A DNA stretch of 64,000 bases, taken from a virus. The stretch lies in the UHGV virus genome UHGV-0211472; one strand, given 5' to 3'. The number at the start of each line of letters is the position of its first letter. The first letter of the stretch is position 1. The position numbers were made by a program, and so were the translations under genes. The notes beneath the pieces were generated by a model. That model was given only the letters and a program-made list of their open reading frames with translations. It had not been told where the DNA came from and searched no databases. Positions 5,296-54,962 of the stretch are shown here, piece after piece.

Positions 5296-6330
5296 ATGGC
5301 GTATGGAATATGGACAACGCCAGTCGGACCGGGACCAGCTTCTCCGGCTGAGCTTTTTATTGATAGTGATTCTACTTTCCCTCAATTCAAGAACAGGGTT
5401 AGTGGTAATTACAACTTTAATGGGGGTAGTAGAGATTTCCCTATTTCTGGATGGGATGGCTCAGGCCAAATCGTTGTAGTCCCCACCGGCTCTTTGTGTT
5501 GGCAATGGGAAGTCCCTCCTAATCTTGTCCCTGATGTGTATGTTGTAAACAATATCAGTATTGTAAATAACTCAACTTTCAGGGTTAGTATAAACATGAA
5601 TCCCGGAAGTAATCCACTGTTTGACGTGGCTTTCAATGTATACCAAATATGGCCTAGAGCCAATAGAAACTATGGTATAACCTTTTCAAACACAGCTGAT
5701 TACTTCTCTATATCAGATGCTGGAGTTGTTGGTCAATGTATTTGGGCTTGGGAAGGAAACATTAATGGCTCTATGCAAATACCAGCAATCAGTGGTTTTG
5801 ATATGTCTAGAGCTTCAGTGTTTGCTAACTGGTCTGGAGGACAAGGTTTACTCTATGATGCTGGGAGTCGTAATATCAGGGTTTACCAAAACAGAACCTA
5901 TGATAACGGAAACAACAACCAAACAGGAACAATTAATAATGTGAGAGTTGCAGTGTTCTGTAACGGGGCTGGTGTTCCTACTCACAATGGTGGATTAAAC
6001 ATATATTCACCTAATGGTTCTCAGTGTGTATTTTCTACTTACAGAACACCTTTTATGGTTGATCGTTTTATGGCTATGAGTGGAGGGAATACTGGACTTA
6101 CATATCCTATGATACCTCTGACGAACGGGGCAGGTTCTATTAGGGGTCAGGCGGGGAGTTGGTATTTCCAACATGCTAGATCTCATACGATGAACGGCTC
6201 TTCTTTTGGTACAGGGTATGGTCGATATATGTTCCAGTGGGATAGAAACTACGATATGGGTGGTGGTGGGGCTATCTCCCTTCAGATTCCAGTCCTAGAT
6301 GCTAGGAAGATTTTTAGAAGCATACAATAA
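5296..6330 (+). CDS. Hypothetical structural protein
   Basis: 344 aa ORF tightly packed (2 nt gap) in late operon; Gly/Asn-rich. Confidence 0.35.
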   Translation: MAYGIWTTPVGPGPASPAELFIDSDSTFPQFKNRVSGNYNFNGGSRDFPISGWDGSGQIVVVPTGSLCWQWEVPPNLVPDVYVVNNISIVNNSTFRVSINMNPGSNPLFDVAFNVYQIWPRANRNYGITFSNTADYFSISDAGVVGQCIWAWEGNINGSMQIPAISGFDMSRASVFANWSGGQGLLYDAGSRNIRVYQNRTYDNGNNNQTGTINNVRVAVFCNGAGVPTHNGGLNIYSPNGSQCVFSTYRTPFMVDRFMAMSGGNTGLTYPMIPLTNGAGSIRGQAGSWYFQHARSHTMNGSSFGTGYGRYMFQWDRNYDMGGGGAISLQIPVLDARKIFRSIQ

Positions 6331-30660: not shown

Positions 30661-30910
30661 TAATTCAATGAAGGACGCAACTCCTTCACCCGTAGCATTA
30701 TATCTACTGCCCGTGGTTTCCCACGGGATTGGACTATATCATCACTCCTATTAAGGAGGCTAGGCGCTTCCACTAGCATTAGCTTCTAGTGTACTCCTTT
30801 CGGATAGTCTCTGCACTTTCTAGGATGTATCCTAGCTTAGCTCAGGATTGGCATATCTTTCGACTTAGCTTTCCCTGAATTCACCTAGTTTTACTTCGGC
30901 CATTGTGTTA
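30661..30910 (-). ncRNA. Group I self-splicing intron (subgroup IA-like) in primase-helicase gene
   Basis: Minus-strand P/Q/R/S cores GAATTCAGGGAAAGC, CAATCCTGAGC, GCAGAGACTATCC, GATATAGTCCAA; P9 CCCGTGG-GAAA-CCACGGG; guide GGCCGAAG pairs with exon end ACTTCGGT; 3' boundary uncertain (30676 or 30691). Confidence 0.6.
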
Positions 30911-44948: not shown

Positions 44949-45047
44949 GTCACTACTCCCTACTAATTACAGCCTGTAAGGGCCACACAGACGATGAAGA
45001 TACAGATTAAGGATATTACACCACCCCAACTCATAACACACCTCATT

Positions 45048-45563
45048 CTATTTAGTTAACCAAAAACCTTTCGGCTTTTTAACAACACCAAGAATCCTAC
45101 ATCTCTTATGGACAGCCGAATCACTAACACTCAGTAACCTCCCTACTACGTACACGGGGTAAATGTCTATTAAAGACTGAAGAGATTCTTTTGTTATTTC
45201 AAACCGTCTGCTATCTAATTTGGCACAAAGCTGTGAGCAAAACCTTTGGTTGCTATTCTCTGAAACAAGGTAAATCTCTCCACAAAAAGAACATAATCTT
45301 TCTTCCATAACAGCCCCATGATGATGCCTGCTATGCTCCTCATAAGTCATGATTTCTAAATTAGATGGTTCGTTGTTTAACTTATTCTCATCCTTGTGAT
45401 GAACCACTAGGTCAGAGTTCAGTTCGACACCGTAGAAATTTTGAGCAACATACCTATGAACATACACCTTTCCAGCTTTATTGGCCATAGGGTGTGTTGG
45501 TTGGTACACATACAAATAACCAACACCTTTATCAACAACTGCTTTACTTAGATCTAGCTTCAT
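45048..45563 (-). CDS. HNH homing endonuclease
   Basis: HNH core VHHKDENKLNNEPSNLEIMTYEEHSRHHH plus C-terminal CxxC...C zinc motif. Confidence 0.6.
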   Translation of the reverse strand: MKLDLSKAVVDKGVGYLYVYQPTHPMANKAGKVYVHRYVAQNFYGVELNSDLVVHHKDENKLNNEPSNLEIMTYEEHSRHHHGAVMEERLCSFCGEIYLVSENSNQRFCSQLCAKLDSRRFEITKESLQSLIDIYPVYVVGRLLSVSDSAVHKRCRILGVVKKPKGFWLTK

Positions 45564-45583
45564 AATACCTCAAGAACTCTTAG

Positions 45584-45662
45584 CGAGGGTGACAGGACTC
45601 GAACCTGCATACTCCATTTACTTCTTTAACGACCACTTAGAAGGCGGGGAAGATACACCCTC
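45584..45662 (-). ncRNA. tRNA-like element (non-canonical, 79 nt)
   Basis: Minus strand has 7 bp acceptor-like stem GAGGGTG/CACCCTC and T-arm GCAGG-TTCGAGT-CCTGT, no encoded CCA; no canonical D-arm or 7 nt anticodon loop found by eye. Confidence 0.35.
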
Positions 45663-45683
45663 ACTAAGAGCTCTCGTTAATCC

Positions 45684-49511: not shown

Positions 49512-50420
49512 TTATGCTGCCTGACGTGCTGCCATAATTTCAGCCGCTTTGCGCAGTACTTCTTCCTCTTCTGCTTTCGCAGCTTGCTCGGTACGAGTAG
49601 CAACCGTTGAAGAGATACGACCGCGCAGACTTTCTAACTTCTCCTGCATAGCTGCAACAGCCTTTTCCATTTCATCAGCGTATGAATCAAGTGATTCCAA
49701 TTCCTTGCTTGATGCGTTCATCAGGTAGTCATCAGAGATTGCTACCGTTGAGGCCGTGACTTTCTTGATGAGTGAATCAAAGGACTTTTTAACTTTGCCG
49801 ACTTCTTCGCTCAGGGCAATAGTGTTATCACTAGTTGCGCCGTTGCGCTCATCAGCTAGTAATTTAGCTTCAATACGGATTGCATTCAAGCGTTCAACCA
49901 AAGCGTAAATATCTTGGTTAAAATCTTCCTTGTTTTTCGCCGGGATTTGCAGGTGTGCCGCTACGTTGTCGTTGCAACCTTTGTAGAAGTTAGGATTATC
50001 AACTTCAATTTCACGACCTAAAGCAAAGTTTTCGAAAGCGTTTGACCAGCGAGCGCGGTTTTGTTCCATTTTGGTCTTAATCTGCGCTTCTTTCGCATCT
50101 TCTTTCGCTTTCGCTTCACCTTCCAGATTAATCCACTTTTTACGACCATTTGCCGCATCGGTGTTAAACTTGATAGGGGTTAAGAAAGTGATTGCGGTAG
50201 CAATAACATCCATATCGCGGAAGCGTTCAGTTAACAGGAAATCAACCGCCGTCTGTAATACGTCCAGTTTCTTACCGTTGCTGCGGAAGTGCTGCAAATG
50301 ACCTAACAGGAAGTTAGAAACATCTTGTTTGATCGCCGCGTTATTGCTACGAATGTTGTTAGCCAGAGCATTAAAACCGGATTCGTTAACCAGAGTAAAG
50401 ATTTTAGCCATGATATTCAC
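49512..50420 (-). CDS. Hypothetical early protein
   Basis: 302 aa; first ORF downstream of the 1.6 kb ORF-free region; Ala/Lys/Glu-rich helical C-terminus. Confidence 0.45.
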   Translation of the reverse strand: MNIMAKIFTLVNESGFNALANNIRSNNAAIKQDVSNFLLGHLQHFRSNGKKLDVLQTAVDFLLTERFRDMDVIATAITFLTPIKFNTDAANGRKKWINLEGEAKAKEDAKEAQIKTKMEQNRARWSNAFENFALGREIEVDNPNFYKGCNDNVAAHLQIPAKNKEDFNQDIYALVERLNAIRIEAKLLADERNGATSDNTIALSEEVGKVKKSFDSLIKKVTASTVAISDDYLMNASSKELESLDSYADEMEKAVAAMQEKLESLRGRISSTVATRTEQAAKAEEEEVLRKAAEIMAARQAA

Positions 50421-51227
50421 CTTTCAATTGTAAGGGCACTTTGCCCCGCTCTCTATGAGCTTGCTTAAGTCACTATTAACTTAACTCTAACCACTCACTA
50501 TTAAGTAGTTATAGGTAAGTGGAGCGGTCTTATCAGGAATTAACCTTGCCGCTCCCTTATCCGTGATGTTTCATCTGGTATCTTTAATTAGTCGCTATAA
50601 ACAAAGCCGACCTGATAGCGATGATCAATCATCACAATAAGGCAGTGCGTCCGACTCTAATTAGTTACGTTATTGTAACCGTCGGCAATATCGTCTACTT
50701 TGCTTTCGCTCTCGCCTATCCTTTTGTATCAACTCTCAATCGCTAGTCATCGCCCACTACGGGATACTATTGCGAAAGAGTCATTGACCGTCTAATATTC
50801 CGACGTTTTATATCTTTCAGCGAGTTTACTACATAAACCGACTATGTACTTTCATCATGAGATGAATCTCAAGCCGTTCACATTGTAAACGTTCACACTA
50901 AACCTTATTGTTAAATAGCAATTTGCCACTTTTTAACCACTCCCCGCCGCTCTCAATTGAGCGTTAATTCGTCGGACTTATCTACCCTGATTAACTTCTT
51001 TCACCGTAGCGCCTTGTTAGCGATGACCGCCGCTACCCTTAACCGTGGGCGATTAGCTTAAGTCGATGCGTGCACTCGATGAATCTGCTTATCAGTGGTG
51101 ATGTTTCCAGTAAGGGATTGTAAGGCTGTTTTCTCTGATAGTTTAGAGAGTCTTACACCGTTTTATCTGGTATGCTTTCCGATGGTTATTATCATCAAGC
51201 ATATTCAACCGATATAGGAGAACGTTT

Positions 51228-51610
51228 AAATTGTTAAAGAGCGGTAAATCTATCAGCGCGCTTTCTCACGCTATGCAACTGTTAGCCGTTGTTACGCTAT
51301 TCACTGAAGCGGTGATTTGCTTAAGTGATGCTCATTATGAATCATGTTGTTTTAGCTGTCAACCACTTTTTTAATCTTTTTCGTCGTTCCCGTTATTGGG
51401 AGGATATACCAATCAGCTTTATTCGATTGGAGATTAAGCGGTAAGGCTTAACTTATGATTCATATTTTTAAAGAGCGGTTACTACATTCACAGCTTAACA
51501 CATCGTGTTAGCTTGTCAACTCTTTTTATCATCTTCTTTGAATTCCTTTCCCTTATCTCGCGTGAATCTCTGCGAAAGGGCAAGATGATAAGTTTTTAAA
51601 GAGCAATTGC
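51228..51610. repeat. Three dispersed copies of TTTAAAGAGC(G/A) with nearby TTGTCAA and TTACTACAT motifs
   Basis: TTTAAAGAGC at ~51231, ~51468, ~51594; TTACTACAT at ~50826, ~51478, ~51641; TTGTCAA at ~51357, ~51514, ~51661. Confidence 0.35.
51334..51362 (-). promoter_or_regulatory. Candidate sigma70-type promoter (minus strand)
   Basis: Minus strand TTGACA - 17 nt - CATAAT. Confidence 0.3.
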
Positions 51611-51919
51611 AAGTTTCCTTGCTTTGTTTCTGATACCCATCTTACTACATTTGGGCATCTTGTCAATCTTTTTATTTCTTATCGATTACCTGTTTTTCGT
51701 ACGACTTATCAGGTTGTCTACTTGGCACTGCTTAACCGATGAATAGATAATAGTGGAAGTGAGGGAGGAAAGCAACACTTATTTTGATTATTTTCAGGGA
51801 AGGAAGATATAAAAGAACGCGCACGCGAATAACATACTAAAACAGGCTTGTAAAGCACTAGTTGACGCTCTCAGACGCATCACAACGAGCTAAAAGGAAG
51901 TAAGGCATACAATCACCTT

Positions 51920-51950
51920 ATAAAAGAGAAAAGCCTCACTAGGAGGCTTA
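51920..51950 (-). terminator. Rho-independent terminator
   Basis: Minus strand AAGCCTC-ctagt-GAGGCTT followed by TTCTCTTTTAT, downstream of 52025..52390 stop. Confidence 0.4.
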
Positions 51951-52024: not shown

Positions 52025-52390
52025 CTATGGATTTACACATTGACCGTTGCCGGATTTTATTTCGTTCATAGACTCGTCAAAGAGCGTCAACGACGAGCGC
52101 AACAAGTGATCGACCGTAATTTGTTTGCCAGTGGTTTCGTTAGTCATATAGATAGACTTGTCATAGACTACAACACTCTCAAAATCTTCTACATGTAAAA
52201 TAATAACTTTAGGTGACTGTTTACCAGTTTCATAATCTTCTATCAAATAGGTGCACTGTAGACCTTCGATAGTATCAGGTGTGAACGTTGCAGCCTTCAC
52301 ACTACCCATAGACGATAGCAGGACACCTAACAGGAGAACAACAAGGAAGAAGCCTACAACCGTTTTAACGACGAATTTAATAAACCACAT
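52025..52390 (-). CDS. Signal-peptide / membrane-anchored protein
   Basis: N-terminal hydrophobic segment VVGFFLVVLLLGVLLSSMGSVKAA. Confidence 0.4.
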   Translation of the reverse strand: MWFIKFVVKTVVGFFLVVLLLGVLLSSMGSVKAATFTPDTIEGLQCTYLIEDYETGKQSPKVIILHVEDFESVVVYDKSIYMTNETTGKQITVDHLLRSSLTLFDESMNEIKSGNGQCVNP

Positions 52391-52484
52391 AGCAGTAAAC
52401 CTTTTTAGTCAGAGAATGTAAGAATACAGCATATCAGCGACGAACAACGCTACCGTAACGACGAACAAGCAACGCCAAAAATAA

Positions 52485-52748
52485 TCATGAAGCATCATTG
52501 CTACCCTCGACAAAAAATACTATACTGATTTGTTCCACTTCTTCCAGCGACAGGAGAATCCCACGTTGAGCTAAATACTTCCCAATAGCGAGATAATCTT
52601 GCACTAAATAGACCGCAGGAAAGCTAACGGTTTTTATCTTACCCTTCGTAAGAAAAGACAAATAAGCATAGTCGATTGACTCATCAAAGGAGAGCGTAAC
52701 GCCACCGTAATTATGCGTATCAATCAGCGCAATAGTTTCATTACCCAT
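52485..52748 (-). CDS. Hypothetical protein
   Basis: Track ORF 52485..53015 overlaps lipoprotein gene by 160 nt; shortened to internal ATG; start uncertain. Confidence 0.25.
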   Translation of the reverse strand: MGNETIALIDTHNYGGVTLSFDESIDYAYLSFLTKGKIKTVSFPAVYLVQDYLAIGKYLAQRGILLSLEEVEQISIVFFVEGSNDAS

Positions 52749-52854
52749 TGGTATCACACTCCCAAAACAACTAACAGATAGTAAGCGATTGCAGTAGCAA
52801 TCACCGTGAAAATTAAAGATAAAATGGTTGAGCTGGTATTGCAAACCATTCTTT

Positions 52855-53184
52855 TTAAATGTCCCATTCTTTACCTTTAGTGGAAGTGTTGCCACCGCAA
52901 TGAGTTGCTCGGGAGATAAAGTCTGACTTCTTCCAATCAGCTTGTGTTTCCATATCACGCTCACGATAGGCTTTCTCATCAACAGATCCACCATTAGAGC
53001 AGCTAGCACCTTCATACTTCATATCAATTTCACCAGAAGGAACCTTAACCCCATCTTTCCAACGCATTACACAAGTACCCTCAACTCCCAGAGCACACCA
53101 ACCGTTGGGACGCGGAGAAGAAGAACATCCAACAGTTGAGAGAACAGCTACAGATAAAAGAGCAGATGCAATCAGAGTTTTCAT
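52855..53184 (-). CDS. Lipoprotein
   Basis: MKTLIASALLSVAVLSTVGCSS: signal peptide with lipobox L-S-T-V-G-C; start moved to this ATG. Confidence 0.45.
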   Translation of the reverse strand: MKTLIASALLSVAVLSTVGCSSSPRPNGWCALGVEGTCVMRWKDGVKVPSGEIDMKYEGASCSNGGSVDEKAYRERDMETQADWKKSDFISRATHCGGNTSTKGKEWDI

Positions 53185-53253
53185 TGTCTTGATTCCTTTA
53201 GTGTTGTCTTGATGAGGTAATAATACTGCCAATCAATAACCGTGTCAACAACT

Positions 53254-53730
53254 TTATTTTGCTTTAACACAATCACCCATCTGGAAGCGGAACGTCCAGA
53301 TACTATTATCAGCAGCATAGACGGAAGTGGCTAACATGGTTTCTTGCATTGTGCCATACGTTACCAGATTAGTCACAACTTTAGAGCCTTTGATAGTCTG
53401 CACATCGCCAAAGGTAATCAACTCAGGGTCATTGTCTTTGCGAGAAAGGAGAATATCCTCATTGTTCTGATTGTCAAGTGTATGAGTAGACAGCACCATA
53501 CCACGATTGGTTACGTTAGATAACTTAACCTTCATCAACGTAGTGACATTATCTGAATCCAACCCTTTACAAACCATCCAACCTTTAGGAGCGTTGCTAA
53601 CGAATGTATCAGCAGCATCATTCACAACTACAGCAGCTTGAGCAACTGGAGCACTAGCAATCTTGTCAGCGATAGCCATGCTACCGAAGGTTAATATCAG
53701 AGCACCGATTACAAAGTTTGACTTAGTCAT
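53254..53730 (-). CDS. Secreted protein
   Basis: N-terminal signal peptide MTKSNFVIGALILTFGSMAIA; first gene downstream of a strong promoter. Confidence 0.45.
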   Translation of the reverse strand: MTKSNFVIGALILTFGSMAIADKIASAPVAQAAVVVNDAADTFVSNAPKGWMVCKGLDSDNVTTLMKVKLSNVTNRGMVLSTHTLDNQNNEDILLSRKDNDPELITFGDVQTIKGSKVVTNLVTYGTMQETMLATSVYAADNSIWTFRFQMGDCVKAK

Positions 53731-53771: not shown

Positions 53772-53800
53772 ACTATACTTCTTACTACACAACAAGTCAA
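53772..53800 (-). promoter_or_regulatory. Sigma70-type early promoter (minus strand)
   Basis: Minus strand TTGACT - 17 nt - TATAGT, ~40 nt upstream of AAGGAA RBS and ATG at 53730. Confidence 0.45.
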
Positions 53801-54539: not shown

Positions 54540-54962
54540 AACGTTGAAAGGGAAGGTAAAGGCATTCCCATATGAGCTTTTTTAAATGAGGACTCCCCTT
54601 TTTTAGGAAACGCGCGGAAGCTGCCTAGCCCCACTCGGTCAAATTGAAATTTTAAACTGTTATATATAAGCTTGATAACTTTATTACGGGGTTGGATACT
54701 ACACATGAAGTAGTTCACTACGTTCAAGTAGCCTTAACGTGACATAGCCTTTATGGGAGTGCCTTAATGTGAGGTCCCCTTTATGTCTTAACTTTATCAG
54801 AGGGATTTATGACTGAAGATGAATATGGTAGCTTCTCTGAAGAAGACTACGAAAATGAATACAGGTATGCTCACGGGTATTAATGTGAGGAGGCCTTTAC
54901 GGGTAGGTAGTCATCAGAGAAGATGATGTGCCCTTTATACTTTCTACTCAGAGGAAAATAAT

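What the first reader, a model, noticed from the sequence alone, without database searches (positions are those of the whole stretch)
52025..53730. Early cluster of envelope-targeted proteins right behind the strong early promoter
The first genes transcribed from the sigma70-like promoter at 53772..53800 encode a signal-peptide protein (53254..53730), a lipoprotein with lipobox LSTVGC (52855..53184) and a signal-anchored protein (52025..52390). Early phage lipoproteins are known to block the phage's own receptor (T5 Llp is the classic case), so these are candidates for superinfection exclusion or receptor masking.
Basis: inference. Interest (0 to 1): 0.4.

Follow-up and report, generated by a model that had tools for sequence, protein, structure and literature searches.

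The report
Early phage operon exporting an LptD-blocking lipoprotein
A phiEco32-like E. coli phage switches on, right at the start of infection, a small operon of proteins sent to the cell envelope. One of them belongs to a known family of phage lipoproteins that plug the essential LPS exporter LptDE from inside so that other phages cannot dock on it.

Summary
On the minus strand, a sigma70-like promoter (53800..53772) is followed by gpA with a signal peptide (53254..53730), a lipoprotein (52855..53184) and gpC with a signal peptide (52025..52390). The unit ends at an intrinsic terminator (51949..51931).

The window is a Kuravirus, a phiEco32/SU10-like podophage. The lipoprotein is not Llp-like. 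It belongs to Pfam PF24052 (E 1e-30) and is 48% identical to Rtp45, whose cryo-EM structure shows it bound to the periplasmic side of LptDE, blocking phage receptor-binding proteins.

So "receptor-masking lipoprotein" is supported by homology, with LptD rather than FhuA as the target.

gpA (predicted eight-stranded beta-barrel) and gpC each have two invariant cysteines. Both families occur only in this phage subfamily, and their functions remain unknown.

The same phage also encodes, beside its tail-needle gene, a DUF6453 protein (5296..6330) of the LptD-binding receptor-protein family. This hints that LptD is the unidentified terminal receptor of these podophages. However, SU10 gp19 was not detected in virions.

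Verdict: a new member of a known kind, in an unusual position, with a testable lead.

The parts
53772..53800 (-). Sigma70-type early promoter P1 (TTGACT-17-TATAGT) driving gpA and the genes downstream
   Evidence: Consensus scan 10/12. The -35 element and its context are conserved upstream of the first right-end gene in phiEco32, Paul, EP335 and L012. Literature: one sigma70 promoter upstream of SU10 CDS125 / phiEco32 gene 128.
53254..53730 (-). gpA: exported protein of 158 aa, with a signal peptide and a periplasmic eight-stranded beta-barrel domain carrying invariant Cys54/Cys154. It is the short form of the phi32_128 family.
53220..53248 (-). Second sigma70-type promoter P2 (TTGACA-17-TATTAT), dedicated to the lipoprotein. 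Its promoter and leader are a paralogue of P1 and its leader.
   Evidence: 11/12 match, joint best in the 6 kb scanned. Exact 14-nt repeat ACTAAAGGAATCAA covering both ribosome-binding sites. 52 of 75 aligned bases identical between the two promoter-leader segments, including GTTGTTGAC.
52855..53184 (-). Outer-membrane lipoprotein of the Rtp45 / PF24052 family (109 aa): predicted LptDE-binding superinfection-exclusion factor
   Evidence: PF24052 E 1.3e-30, 105.6 bits against a cut-off of 27. PDB 9rps_D (Rtp45) E 5.2e-20. BLASTP 48% identity over 69 aa. Lipobox, Cys20 and Ser+2. Cys30/Cys38 and the C-terminal (K/R)EW motif conserved. 16 synonymous against 5 non-synonymous codon changes versus L012.
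52754..52867 (-). s37: 37-aa single-pass membrane peptide overlapping the lipoprotein stop codon; it travels with the lipoprotein
   Evidence: ORF. Conserved directly after the lipoprotein in L012 with third-position-biased differences (4/3/13; 9 synonymous, 6 non-synonymous codons). No homologue in the phage collection or in any HMM library.
52485..52748 (-). o87: 87-aa acidic protein without an export signal (phrog_16976), conserved in the cluster across the subfamily
   Evidence: phrog_16976 E 3e-51. Orthologues phi32_126, MN03_07, EP335 ORF124, Bas87_0123 and SU7_116. No hydrophobic N-terminus.
52409..52498 (-). s29: 29-aa hydrophobic peptide, probably a small membrane protein
   Evidence: ORF with GAGG upstream. 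Similar to the annotated 30-aa Bas87_0122 at the same position. Weak evidence only.
52025..52390 (-). gpC: exported protein of 121 aa (phi32_125 family) with invariant Cys46/Cys118; function unknown
   Evidence: phrog_13168 E 9e-72; the 'terminase' label is spurious. 26 close homologues, all Kuravirus-like. Only two 50%-identity clusters among 1.84 billion representatives. Cleavable signal peptide in Bas87/SU7 orthologues. AF2 model unusable, pLDDT 53. Deleted in the related contig L012.
51931..51949 (-). Intrinsic terminator closing the early unit (AAGCCTCCTAGTGAGGCTT followed by a T-run)
   Evidence: Terminator scan. Same hairpin present in L012. The literature places a putative terminator after SU10 CDS121.
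5296..6330 (+). gp19-like DUF6453 protein (344 aa) between the tail-needle and ejection-protein genes: candidate LptD-binding partner of the lipoprotein (inferred)
   Evidence: PF20051 E 1.4e-25, 90.7 bits against a cut-off of 25, the same family as Rtp44 and the Oekolampad RBP. PDB 9rpt_C E 4e-9 over residues 77-334. Rtp44 23% identity over 301 aa. Flanked by the SU10-type tail needle and a transglycosylase. Present in Gordonclarkvirinae of several genera. Against: SU10 gp19 is listed as not in the virion and not detected by MS.
45048..45563 (-). HNH endonuclease ORF occupying the site where other Gordonclarkvirinae carry the lipoprotein gene and tRNA-Arg (context for the relocation)
   Evidence: PF13392 E 1.6e-12. 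Synteny break at 44963..45677 relative to phiEc_1. No tRNA in the window. Canonical lipoprotein loci are phi32_106, ECBP2_0100 and phiEc1_0340, next to tRNA-Arg.

Best explanation
This is the first early transcription unit of a Kuravirus (phiEco32/SU10-like podophage). Host sigma70 RNA polymerase starts at P1 and at a duplicated promoter P2, and stops at the terminator at 51.9 kb. Most of its products leave the cytoplasm.

The lipoprotein is processed at Cys20, acylated and sorted by Lol to the inner leaflet of the outer membrane (Ser at +2). By homology with Rtp45 it docks on the periplasmic side of the LPS translocon LptDE, pushes a beta-hairpin up the LptD lumen and forces extracellular loop 4 outwards. 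LptD-specific receptor-binding proteins then can no longer bind. The infected cell and its debris thus become refractory to LptD-dependent phages, and probably to this phage itself, if its DUF6453 protein gp19 is its terminal receptor-binding protein.

gpA and gpC are periplasmic proteins, each with two invariant cysteines (probably disulfide-bonded), with unknown envelope partners.

Shown: gene anatomy, export signals, family membership and conservation. Taken from the literature: early timing in relatives and the Rtp45 mechanism. Inferred: binding to LptDE by this protein, exclusion, and self-exclusion.
For: Anatomy: ORFs, ribosome-binding sites, two promoters and a terminator, with the same layout in relatives and in the SU10 paper. 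The right-end leftward genes are the early class in phiEco32.

Lipoprotein: PF24052 at 105.6 bits. Its only significant PDB match is Rtp45, E 5e-20, at 48% identity, with Cys20, Cys30/Cys38, the hairpin segment and the C-terminal (K/R)EW motif conserved. It is under purifying selection. The Rtp45-LptDE structure and exclusion mechanism are described in PMC12685063 and restated in a 2026 preprint.

Partner: the genome also encodes a DUF6453 protein of the LptD-binding family in the tail module. In small siphophages this RBP type and LptD dependence go together without exception. A homologous lipoprotein occurs in at least about 74 phage records that cover 80% or more of the query, nearly all Gordonclarkvirinae. 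DUF6453 occurs across the genera of that subfamily.

Periplasmic location of gpA and gpC: signal peptides plus exactly two invariant cysteines each.
Against: No experiment exists for this protein or for any Kuravirus homologue. It carries a roughly 30-residue insertion with two extra cysteines that Rtp45 lacks, so its fit in LptDE could differ.

The lipoprotein and the DUF6453 gene are 47 kb apart, not a cassette as in siphophages. SU10 gp19 was reported as absent from virions and undetected by MS. Kuravirus resistance mutants reported so far lose O-antigen, and the literature assumes an LPS-core terminal receptor.

gpA and gpC have no functional homologues, and gpC is deleted in a related contig.
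Confidence: 0.6

Rival explanations
1. Competitor exclusion only. The lipoprotein blocks LptD against the abundant LptD-dependent siphophages (Rtpvirus, Dhillonvirus, Queuovirinae and others), but the Kuravirus itself does not use LptD. gp19 is then a non-virion protein with another role.
For: SU10 gp19 is listed as 'in virion: no, detected by MS: no'. Published Kuravirus host-recognition models use long and short tail fibres and glycans. The lipoprotein gene is unlinked to the DUF6453 gene.
Against: DUF6453 is kept in the tail module, between the needle and ejection-protein genes, in Gordonclarkvirinae of several genera. That is hard to explain for a protein with no part in entry. A single copy at a flexible needle tip, resolved only to 10-15 A with C3 symmetry imposed, could escape gel-band MS.
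Confidence: 0.25
2. Host-envelope manipulation rather than exclusion. By sitting in LptDE the lipoprotein throttles or alters LPS/O-antigen export, for example to change the primary glycan receptor layer or to weaken the outer membrane before lysis. gpA and gpC act on other envelope machines.
For: Rtp45 occupies part of the LptD lumen and contacts LptE and LptM. O-antigen is the essential primary receptor of these phages. The operon exports several proteins at once.
Against: LptM stays bound and no LPS-transport defect is reported for Rtp45. The family sits beside receptor-binding genes in siphophages, which argues for an adsorption-related role. There are no data on LPS export.
Confidence: 0.08
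3. Lysis function. The lipoprotein is an outer-membrane spanin subunit, and gpC or the small TM peptides are its inner-membrane partner.
For: It is a small outer-membrane lipoprotein with neighbouring small membrane-protein genes.
Against: It lies behind sigma70 early promoters in the early region, far from the holin and lysin genes of the late module, which are SU10 gp14/15. It is homologous to a protein seen bound to LptDE. gpC is predicted beta-rich, not coiled-coil, and is dispensable in L012. The lipoprotein has no C-terminal TM segment.
Confidence: 0.03

Closest known systems
Rtp45, superinfection-exclusion lipoprotein of siphophage Rtp (Pfam PF24052; PDB 9RPS chain D)
   Same: Same Pfam family. 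48% identity over the signal peptide and the first 50 mature residues. Same VGC-SS lipobox, Cys30-Cys38 pair, hairpin segment and C-terminal (K/R)EW. Described as an early phage product (my recollection of Wietzorrek et al. 2006, not verified here).
   Different: Podophage rather than siphophage. About 30 extra residues with a second cysteine pair before the C-terminus. Not adjacent to the receptor-binding gene, but in the first early operon behind its own promoter. Binding to LptDE has not been shown.
phi32_106 / ECBP2_0100 / phiEc1_0340, the canonical Gordonclarkvirinae copies of the same lipoprotein
   Same: Orthologous mature domain, 45-59% identity across the whole alignment and 70-72% over the mature part in the closest group, NC-B/ECBP2. 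Same extra cysteine pair and early-region location.
   Different: They lie about 10 kb further into the early region, next to tRNA-Arg, with a different signal peptide (MSWGGVI...TGC). In the window that site holds an HNH endonuclease and there is no tRNA. Here the gene sits behind a duplicated early promoter and leader.
T5 Llp (FhuA-blocking lipoprotein) and Cor of phi80/N15
   Same: Same logic: a small early lipoprotein anchored in the outer membrane binds the periplasmic face of the receptor and prevents phage docking.
   Different: No sequence similarity found. Only PF24052 and Rtp45 matched. The target is LptDE, not FhuA, and the mechanism is steric loop displacement, not long-range allostery.
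Rtp44 / Oekolampad RBP (DUF6453), LptD-binding receptor-binding proteins of small siphophages, compared with window gp19
   Same: gp19 scores 90.7 bits on PF20051 over profile positions 31-288 of 291 and matches PDB 9rpt_C at E 4e-9.
   Different: Only 23-27% identity. The gene follows a podophage tail-needle gene rather than a J-like tip gene. It was not detected in SU10 virions.

Membership tests
PF24052 / Rtp45-type superinfection-exclusion lipoproteins | Score above the Pfam gathering threshold over the full profile | tested here: met
   105.6 bits against a cut-off of 27, profile positions 1-80 of 80. Also phrog_4281, E 3e-28.
PF24052 / Rtp45-type superinfection-exclusion lipoproteins | Lipoprotein signal peptide with lipobox cysteine and an outer-membrane sorting residue at +2 | tested here: met
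   LSVAVLSTVGC matches the PS51257 pattern. Cys20 is followed by Ser-Ser, as in Rtp45. This is a rule-based test; no LipoP/SignalP was available.
PF24052 / Rtp45-type superinfection-exclusion lipoproteins | Cys30-Cys38 disulfide pair and the following beta-hairpin segment that enters the LptD lumen | tested here: met
   Both cysteines are invariant in the six-sequence alignment. CV.RWKDGVKVPSGEIDMKY aligns with [20 protein letters not shown]. The structural role is taken from PMC12685063.
PF24052 / Rtp45-type superinfection-exclusion lipoproteins | [quoted passage not shown] | not testable with these tools
   Needs co-purification or cryo-EM and adsorption assays. The source paper notes that AF3 mis-predicts these complexes.
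PF24052 / Rtp45-type superinfection-exclusion lipoproteins | Encoded next to the cognate DUF6453 receptor-binding gene (cassette arrangement of small siphophages) | tested here: not met
   Lipoprotein at 52.9-53.2 kb, DUF6453 gene at 5.3-6.3 kb. Both are in the same genome but unlinked. Adjacency is seen in Rtp, Oekolampad and TR1.
T5 Llp family | Sequence similarity to Llp | tested here: not met
   phmmer against all PDB chains at E up to 10 returned only Rtp45 plus two chance hits. The Pfam scan returned only PF24052.
Two-component spanin (outer-membrane subunit) | Located in the lysis cassette, expressed late, with an embedded, overlapping or adjacent coiled-coil inner-membrane partner | tested here: not met
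   The gene is in the early region behind sigma70 promoters. Holin and lysin are SU10 gp14/15 in the late module. The neighbouring genes are a 37-aa peptide and a cytoplasmic protein.
DUF6453 (PF20051) LptD-binding receptor-binding proteins (for window gp19, 5296..6330) | Score above the Pfam gathering threshold and homology to the solved Oekolampad RBP | tested here: met
   90.7 bits against a cut-off of 25. PDB 9rpt_C at E 4e-9 over residues 77-334 versus 72-315.
DUF6453 (PF20051) LptD-binding receptor-binding proteins (for window gp19, 5296..6330) | Component of the virion tail tip | tested here: inconclusive
   The gene lies between the tail-needle and ejection-protein genes. However, SU10 gp19 is listed as not in the virion and not detected by MS. 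A single-copy protein may have been missed.
DUF6453 (PF20051) LptD-binding receptor-binding proteins (for window gp19, 5296..6330) | Infection depends on LptD | not testable with these tools
   No paper in the searched library links Kuravirus or Gordonclarkvirinae to LptD.

The most novel reading that the evidence does not exclude
Kuraviruses, and Gordonclarkvirinae in general, use the essential LPS translocon LptD as their so far unidentified terminal receptor. A single DUF6453 protein (gp19) carried at the tail-needle tip would do the binding. The early Rtp45-type lipoprotein would then be its cognate self-exclusion factor. On this reading the siphophage RBP and exclusion-protein pair was taken up by a podophage and split between the late tail module and the earliest operon. 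gpA and gpC would be further, entirely new periplasmic exclusion or takeover factors.
Probability: 0.35. Interest if true: 0.65.

Novelty: new member of a known kind. Interest (0 to 1): 0.45.

Why it matters
The terminal receptor of the phiEco32/SU10 group is unknown, although its virion structure and entry intermediates have been solved and the phages are used therapeutically. These genomes carry both halves of the LptD recognition and exclusion pair of small siphophages. That gives a concrete, cheap test: plating on lptD loop mutants in an O-antigen-positive host, and expression of the lipoprotein.

LptD is essential and conserved, so phages that target it, and proteins that plug it from the periplasm, matter for phage-cocktail design. 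Kuraviruses could exclude, or be excluded by, LptD-dependent siphophages. They also matter as leads for LptDE inhibitors.

The two subfamily-restricted periplasmic proteins are candidates for unknown envelope-level takeover or exclusion functions.

Tried and rejected
- T5 Llp-like identity for the lipoprotein: rejected, no similarity.
- Spanin role: rejected on position, timing and homology.
- gpC structure: the AF2 model was unusable (pLDDT 53), so no fold search was run. An exhaustive profile search of 1.84 billion representatives found only two real clusters, both from this phage subfamily.
- The 'terminase' label of phrog_13168, copied into GenBank records for gpC orthologues, is spurious: this is a 121-aa exported protein.
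- The afdb50 fold library was unavailable.
- NCBIfam and PADLOC gave nothing for any of the six proteins.
- The 37-aa peptide has no tblastn match in the phage collection.
- Rfam found nothing in or near the cluster.
- The Wietzorrek 2006 Rtp paper could not be retrieved. The statement that cloned rtp45 confers resistance to Rtp therefore rests on my memory and on how later papers cite it.
- Co-variation of lipoprotein and gp19 alleles across genomes was considered but not run. The two proteins bind opposite faces of LptD, so it would not be decisive.
Full report
**What is there.** A sigma70-type promoter, TTGACT-17-TATAGT, sits at 53800..53772. It is followed by six genes with Shine-Dalgarno-like sequences:
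- gpA, 53254..53730, 158 aa
- a lipoprotein, 52855..53184, 109 aa
- a 37-aa membrane peptide that overlaps the lipoprotein stop codon, 52754..52867
- an 87-aa protein without an export signal, 52485..52748
- a 29-aa hydrophobic peptide, 52409..52498
- gpC, 52025..52390, 121 aa

A GC-rich hairpin with a T-run at 51949..51931 closes the unit. At 11/12 it is one of the two best matches in the 6 kb scanned.

Rule-based checks agree with export. gpA has a hydrophobic core followed by AIA|D and AQA|A sites. The lipoprotein's LSVAVLSTVGC fits the PROSITE lipobox rule, with Ser at +2, which implies outer-membrane sorting. gpC has a long hydrophobic segment followed by VKA|A. Three of the five ORFs of at least 100 aa with such N-termini in the whole window lie in this 1.7 kb (crude hypergeometric P about 9e-4).

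**Context.** The window is a Kuravirus, a phiEco32/SU10-like podophage of the Gordonclarkvirinae. Its backbone is about 93% identical to known members, but this cluster matches only in patches of about 85%.

In phiEco32 the right-end, leftward-transcribed genes are the experimentally defined early class. For SU10 the literature describes exactly this layout: one sigma70 promoter upstream of the first gene, a putative terminator after the fourth or fifth gene, then a spacer with three more promoters.

Relatives have the same operon skeleton:
- a gp128-like first gene
- one to three small genes, including the phrog_16976 protein
- a gp125-like last gene

**The lipoprotein.** It scores 105.6 bits on Pfam PF24052, 'Phage_lipoprotein', against a cut-off of 27. 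Its only significant solved relative is chain D of PDB 9RPS (E 5e-20). That chain is Rtp45 of siphophage Rtp, at 48% identity over 69 residues.

The source paper (PMC12685063) shows the following:
- Rtp45 is bound to the periplasmic side of the LPS translocon LptDE, sandwiched between LptE and LptM.
- It has a Cys30-Cys38 disulfide and a hairpin that rises through the LptD lumen.
- The hairpin displaces extracellular loop 4 by up to 20 A, so the phage receptor-binding protein can no longer bind.

A 2026 preprint restates this role. The window protein keeps the lipid cysteine, both disulfide cysteines, the hairpin segment and the C-terminal (K/R)EW motif. It adds about 30 residues with two further cysteines, a feature shared by all Gordonclarkvirinae copies. 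Against a related metagenomic phage it shows 16 synonymous and 5 non-synonymous codon changes, so it is under purifying selection.

The precedent is Rtp45 and LptD, not Llp and FhuA. No similarity to any other solved protein or Pfam family was found.

**An unusual position.** Other Gordonclarkvirinae carry this gene about 10 kb further into the early region, beside a tRNA-Arg gene. Examples are phi32_106 (annotated 'putative phage lipoprotein'), ECBP2_0100 and phiEc1_0340.

In the window that site (44963..45677) holds an HNH endonuclease ORF, and there is no tRNA anywhere in the window. Instead the lipoprotein, together with the 37-aa peptide, replaces the phi32_127-type gene of the first operon.

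Its promoter and leader are a paralogue of the gpA promoter and leader. The two share GTTGTTGAC at the -35 region and an exact 14-nt ACTAAAGGAATCAA over the ribosome-binding site, with 52 of 75 aligned bases identical.

The arrangement recurs in at least five metagenomic contigs of about 68 kb. In one related contig the operon is reduced to gpA, lipoprotein, the 37-aa peptide and the terminator. The 37-aa ORF differs there mainly at third codon positions (4/3/13), so it is a real gene.

**gpA and gpC.** gpA is the short form of the phi32_128 family. Its conserved part is the region after the hydrophobic segment. Some phages add a 130-residue N-terminal, presumably cytoplasmic, domain, which would make a bitopic membrane protein. 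The family has 157 members, all from this phage group. Cys54 and Cys154 are invariant.

gpC is the phi32_125 family and also has two invariant cysteines. Its Bas87 and SU7 orthologues have a textbook cleavable signal peptide. An exhaustive profile search of 1.84 billion representatives found only two real clusters. The AF2 model was unusable.

Both proteins are best described as periplasmic proteins, probably disulfide-bonded, restricted to this subfamily and of unknown function. The 'terminase' label attached to gpC orthologues through phrog_13168 is wrong.

**The lead outside the given coordinates.** A search of the window with Rtp44, the LptD-specific receptor-binding protein encoded next to Rtp45, hit ORF 5296..6330 (23% identity over 301 residues). 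The evidence that this ORF belongs to the same family is:
- It scores 90.7 bits on Pfam DUF6453 (cut-off 25), the family of Rtp44 and the Oekolampad RBP.
- It matches the solved Oekolampad RBP bound to LptDE, PDB 9RPT chain C, at E 4e-9.
- It lies between the SU10-type tail-needle gene and the transglycosylase ejection protein, so it corresponds to SU10 gp19.
- It is present in Gordonclarkvirinae of several genera.

In small siphophages the DUF6453 type of RBP locus predicts LptD dependence without exception. The terminal receptor of Gordonclarkvirinae is unknown and is assumed to be LPS core. No paper in the searched library links these phages to LptD. A Pseudomonas N4-like podophage, DEV, has recently been reported to use LptD (title and abstract).

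Against this reading, the SU10 structural study lists gp19 as not in the virion and not detected by MS, and never discusses it. A single copy on a flexible needle, resolved only to 10-15 A with threefold symmetry imposed, could have been missed. This remains the main weakness.

**Mechanism and rivals.** The best-supported account is an early, self-contained operon that loads the envelope with phage proteins. Its lipoprotein plugs LptDE from the periplasm and makes the cell refractory to LptD-dependent phages, probably including the phage itself (confidence 0.6 for the LptDE-blocking role).

The main rival is exclusion of competitors only, with gp19 not acting as a virion receptor-binding protein (0.25). 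Manipulation of LPS export (0.08) and a spanin role (0.03) are less likely, for the reasons given under the rival explanations.

**Verdict.** The lipoprotein is a new member of a known kind. Its relocation behind a duplicated early promoter is a modest novelty. The interesting part is the testable inference that a structurally well-studied podophage group may use LptD.

Noticed in passing
window 5296..6330 (+): ORF between the tail-needle and transglycosylase genes is a DUF6453 protein. It is homologous to the LptD-binding receptor proteins Rtp44 and Oekolampad RBP (PDB 9RPT_C). It corresponds to SU10 gp19, which was reported as not detected in virions.
   Followed up: partly
window 44963..45677 (HNH ORF 45048..45563, -): An HNH endonuclease gene occupies the site where related phages carry tRNA-Arg and the canonical copy of the lipoprotein gene. 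The window has no tRNA at all.
   Followed up: partly
window about 50100..51930: A stretch of about 1.9 kb without credible ORFs, downstream of the cluster's terminator, is 91-94% identical to phiEco32, MN03 and phiEc_1 over most of its length. That is better conserved than the flanking coding cluster. It carries strong sigma70-like sites (51362..51334, 11/12; 51666..51639). SU10 is said to have three promoters here, but why the whole spacer is so conserved is unexplained.
   Followed up: no
window 30710..30920 (-): Rfam group I intron match (RF00028, 86 bits, full-length model) inside the middle-gene region.
   Followed up: no
window 54734..54899 (+): Three copies of a 20-nt motif, TTAATGTGAGG..CCTTTA, upstream of the rightward genes. 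It partly resembles the phiEco32 gp36-sigma promoter consensus tAATGTAtA.
   Followed up: no
L012 3978..4110 (metagenomic relative): In a related 68.7-kb contig a deletion truncates the o87-type gene and removes the 29-aa peptide and gpC, so the operon ends right after the 37-aa peptide. gpC therefore appears dispensable.
   Followed up: partly
L001 739..1611 (phi32_128) versus window 53254..53730: The first gene of the operon exists in a long form (290 aa, with an extra conserved N-terminal domain before the hydrophobic segment) and a short form (158-167 aa), scattered across the subfamily.
   Followed up: partly
gpC orthologues in GenBank (for example phage 4E8 and Bas87_0121): The 121-aa exported protein is annotated 'terminase' through phrog_13168. 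This is a propagated mis-annotation.
   Followed up: yes
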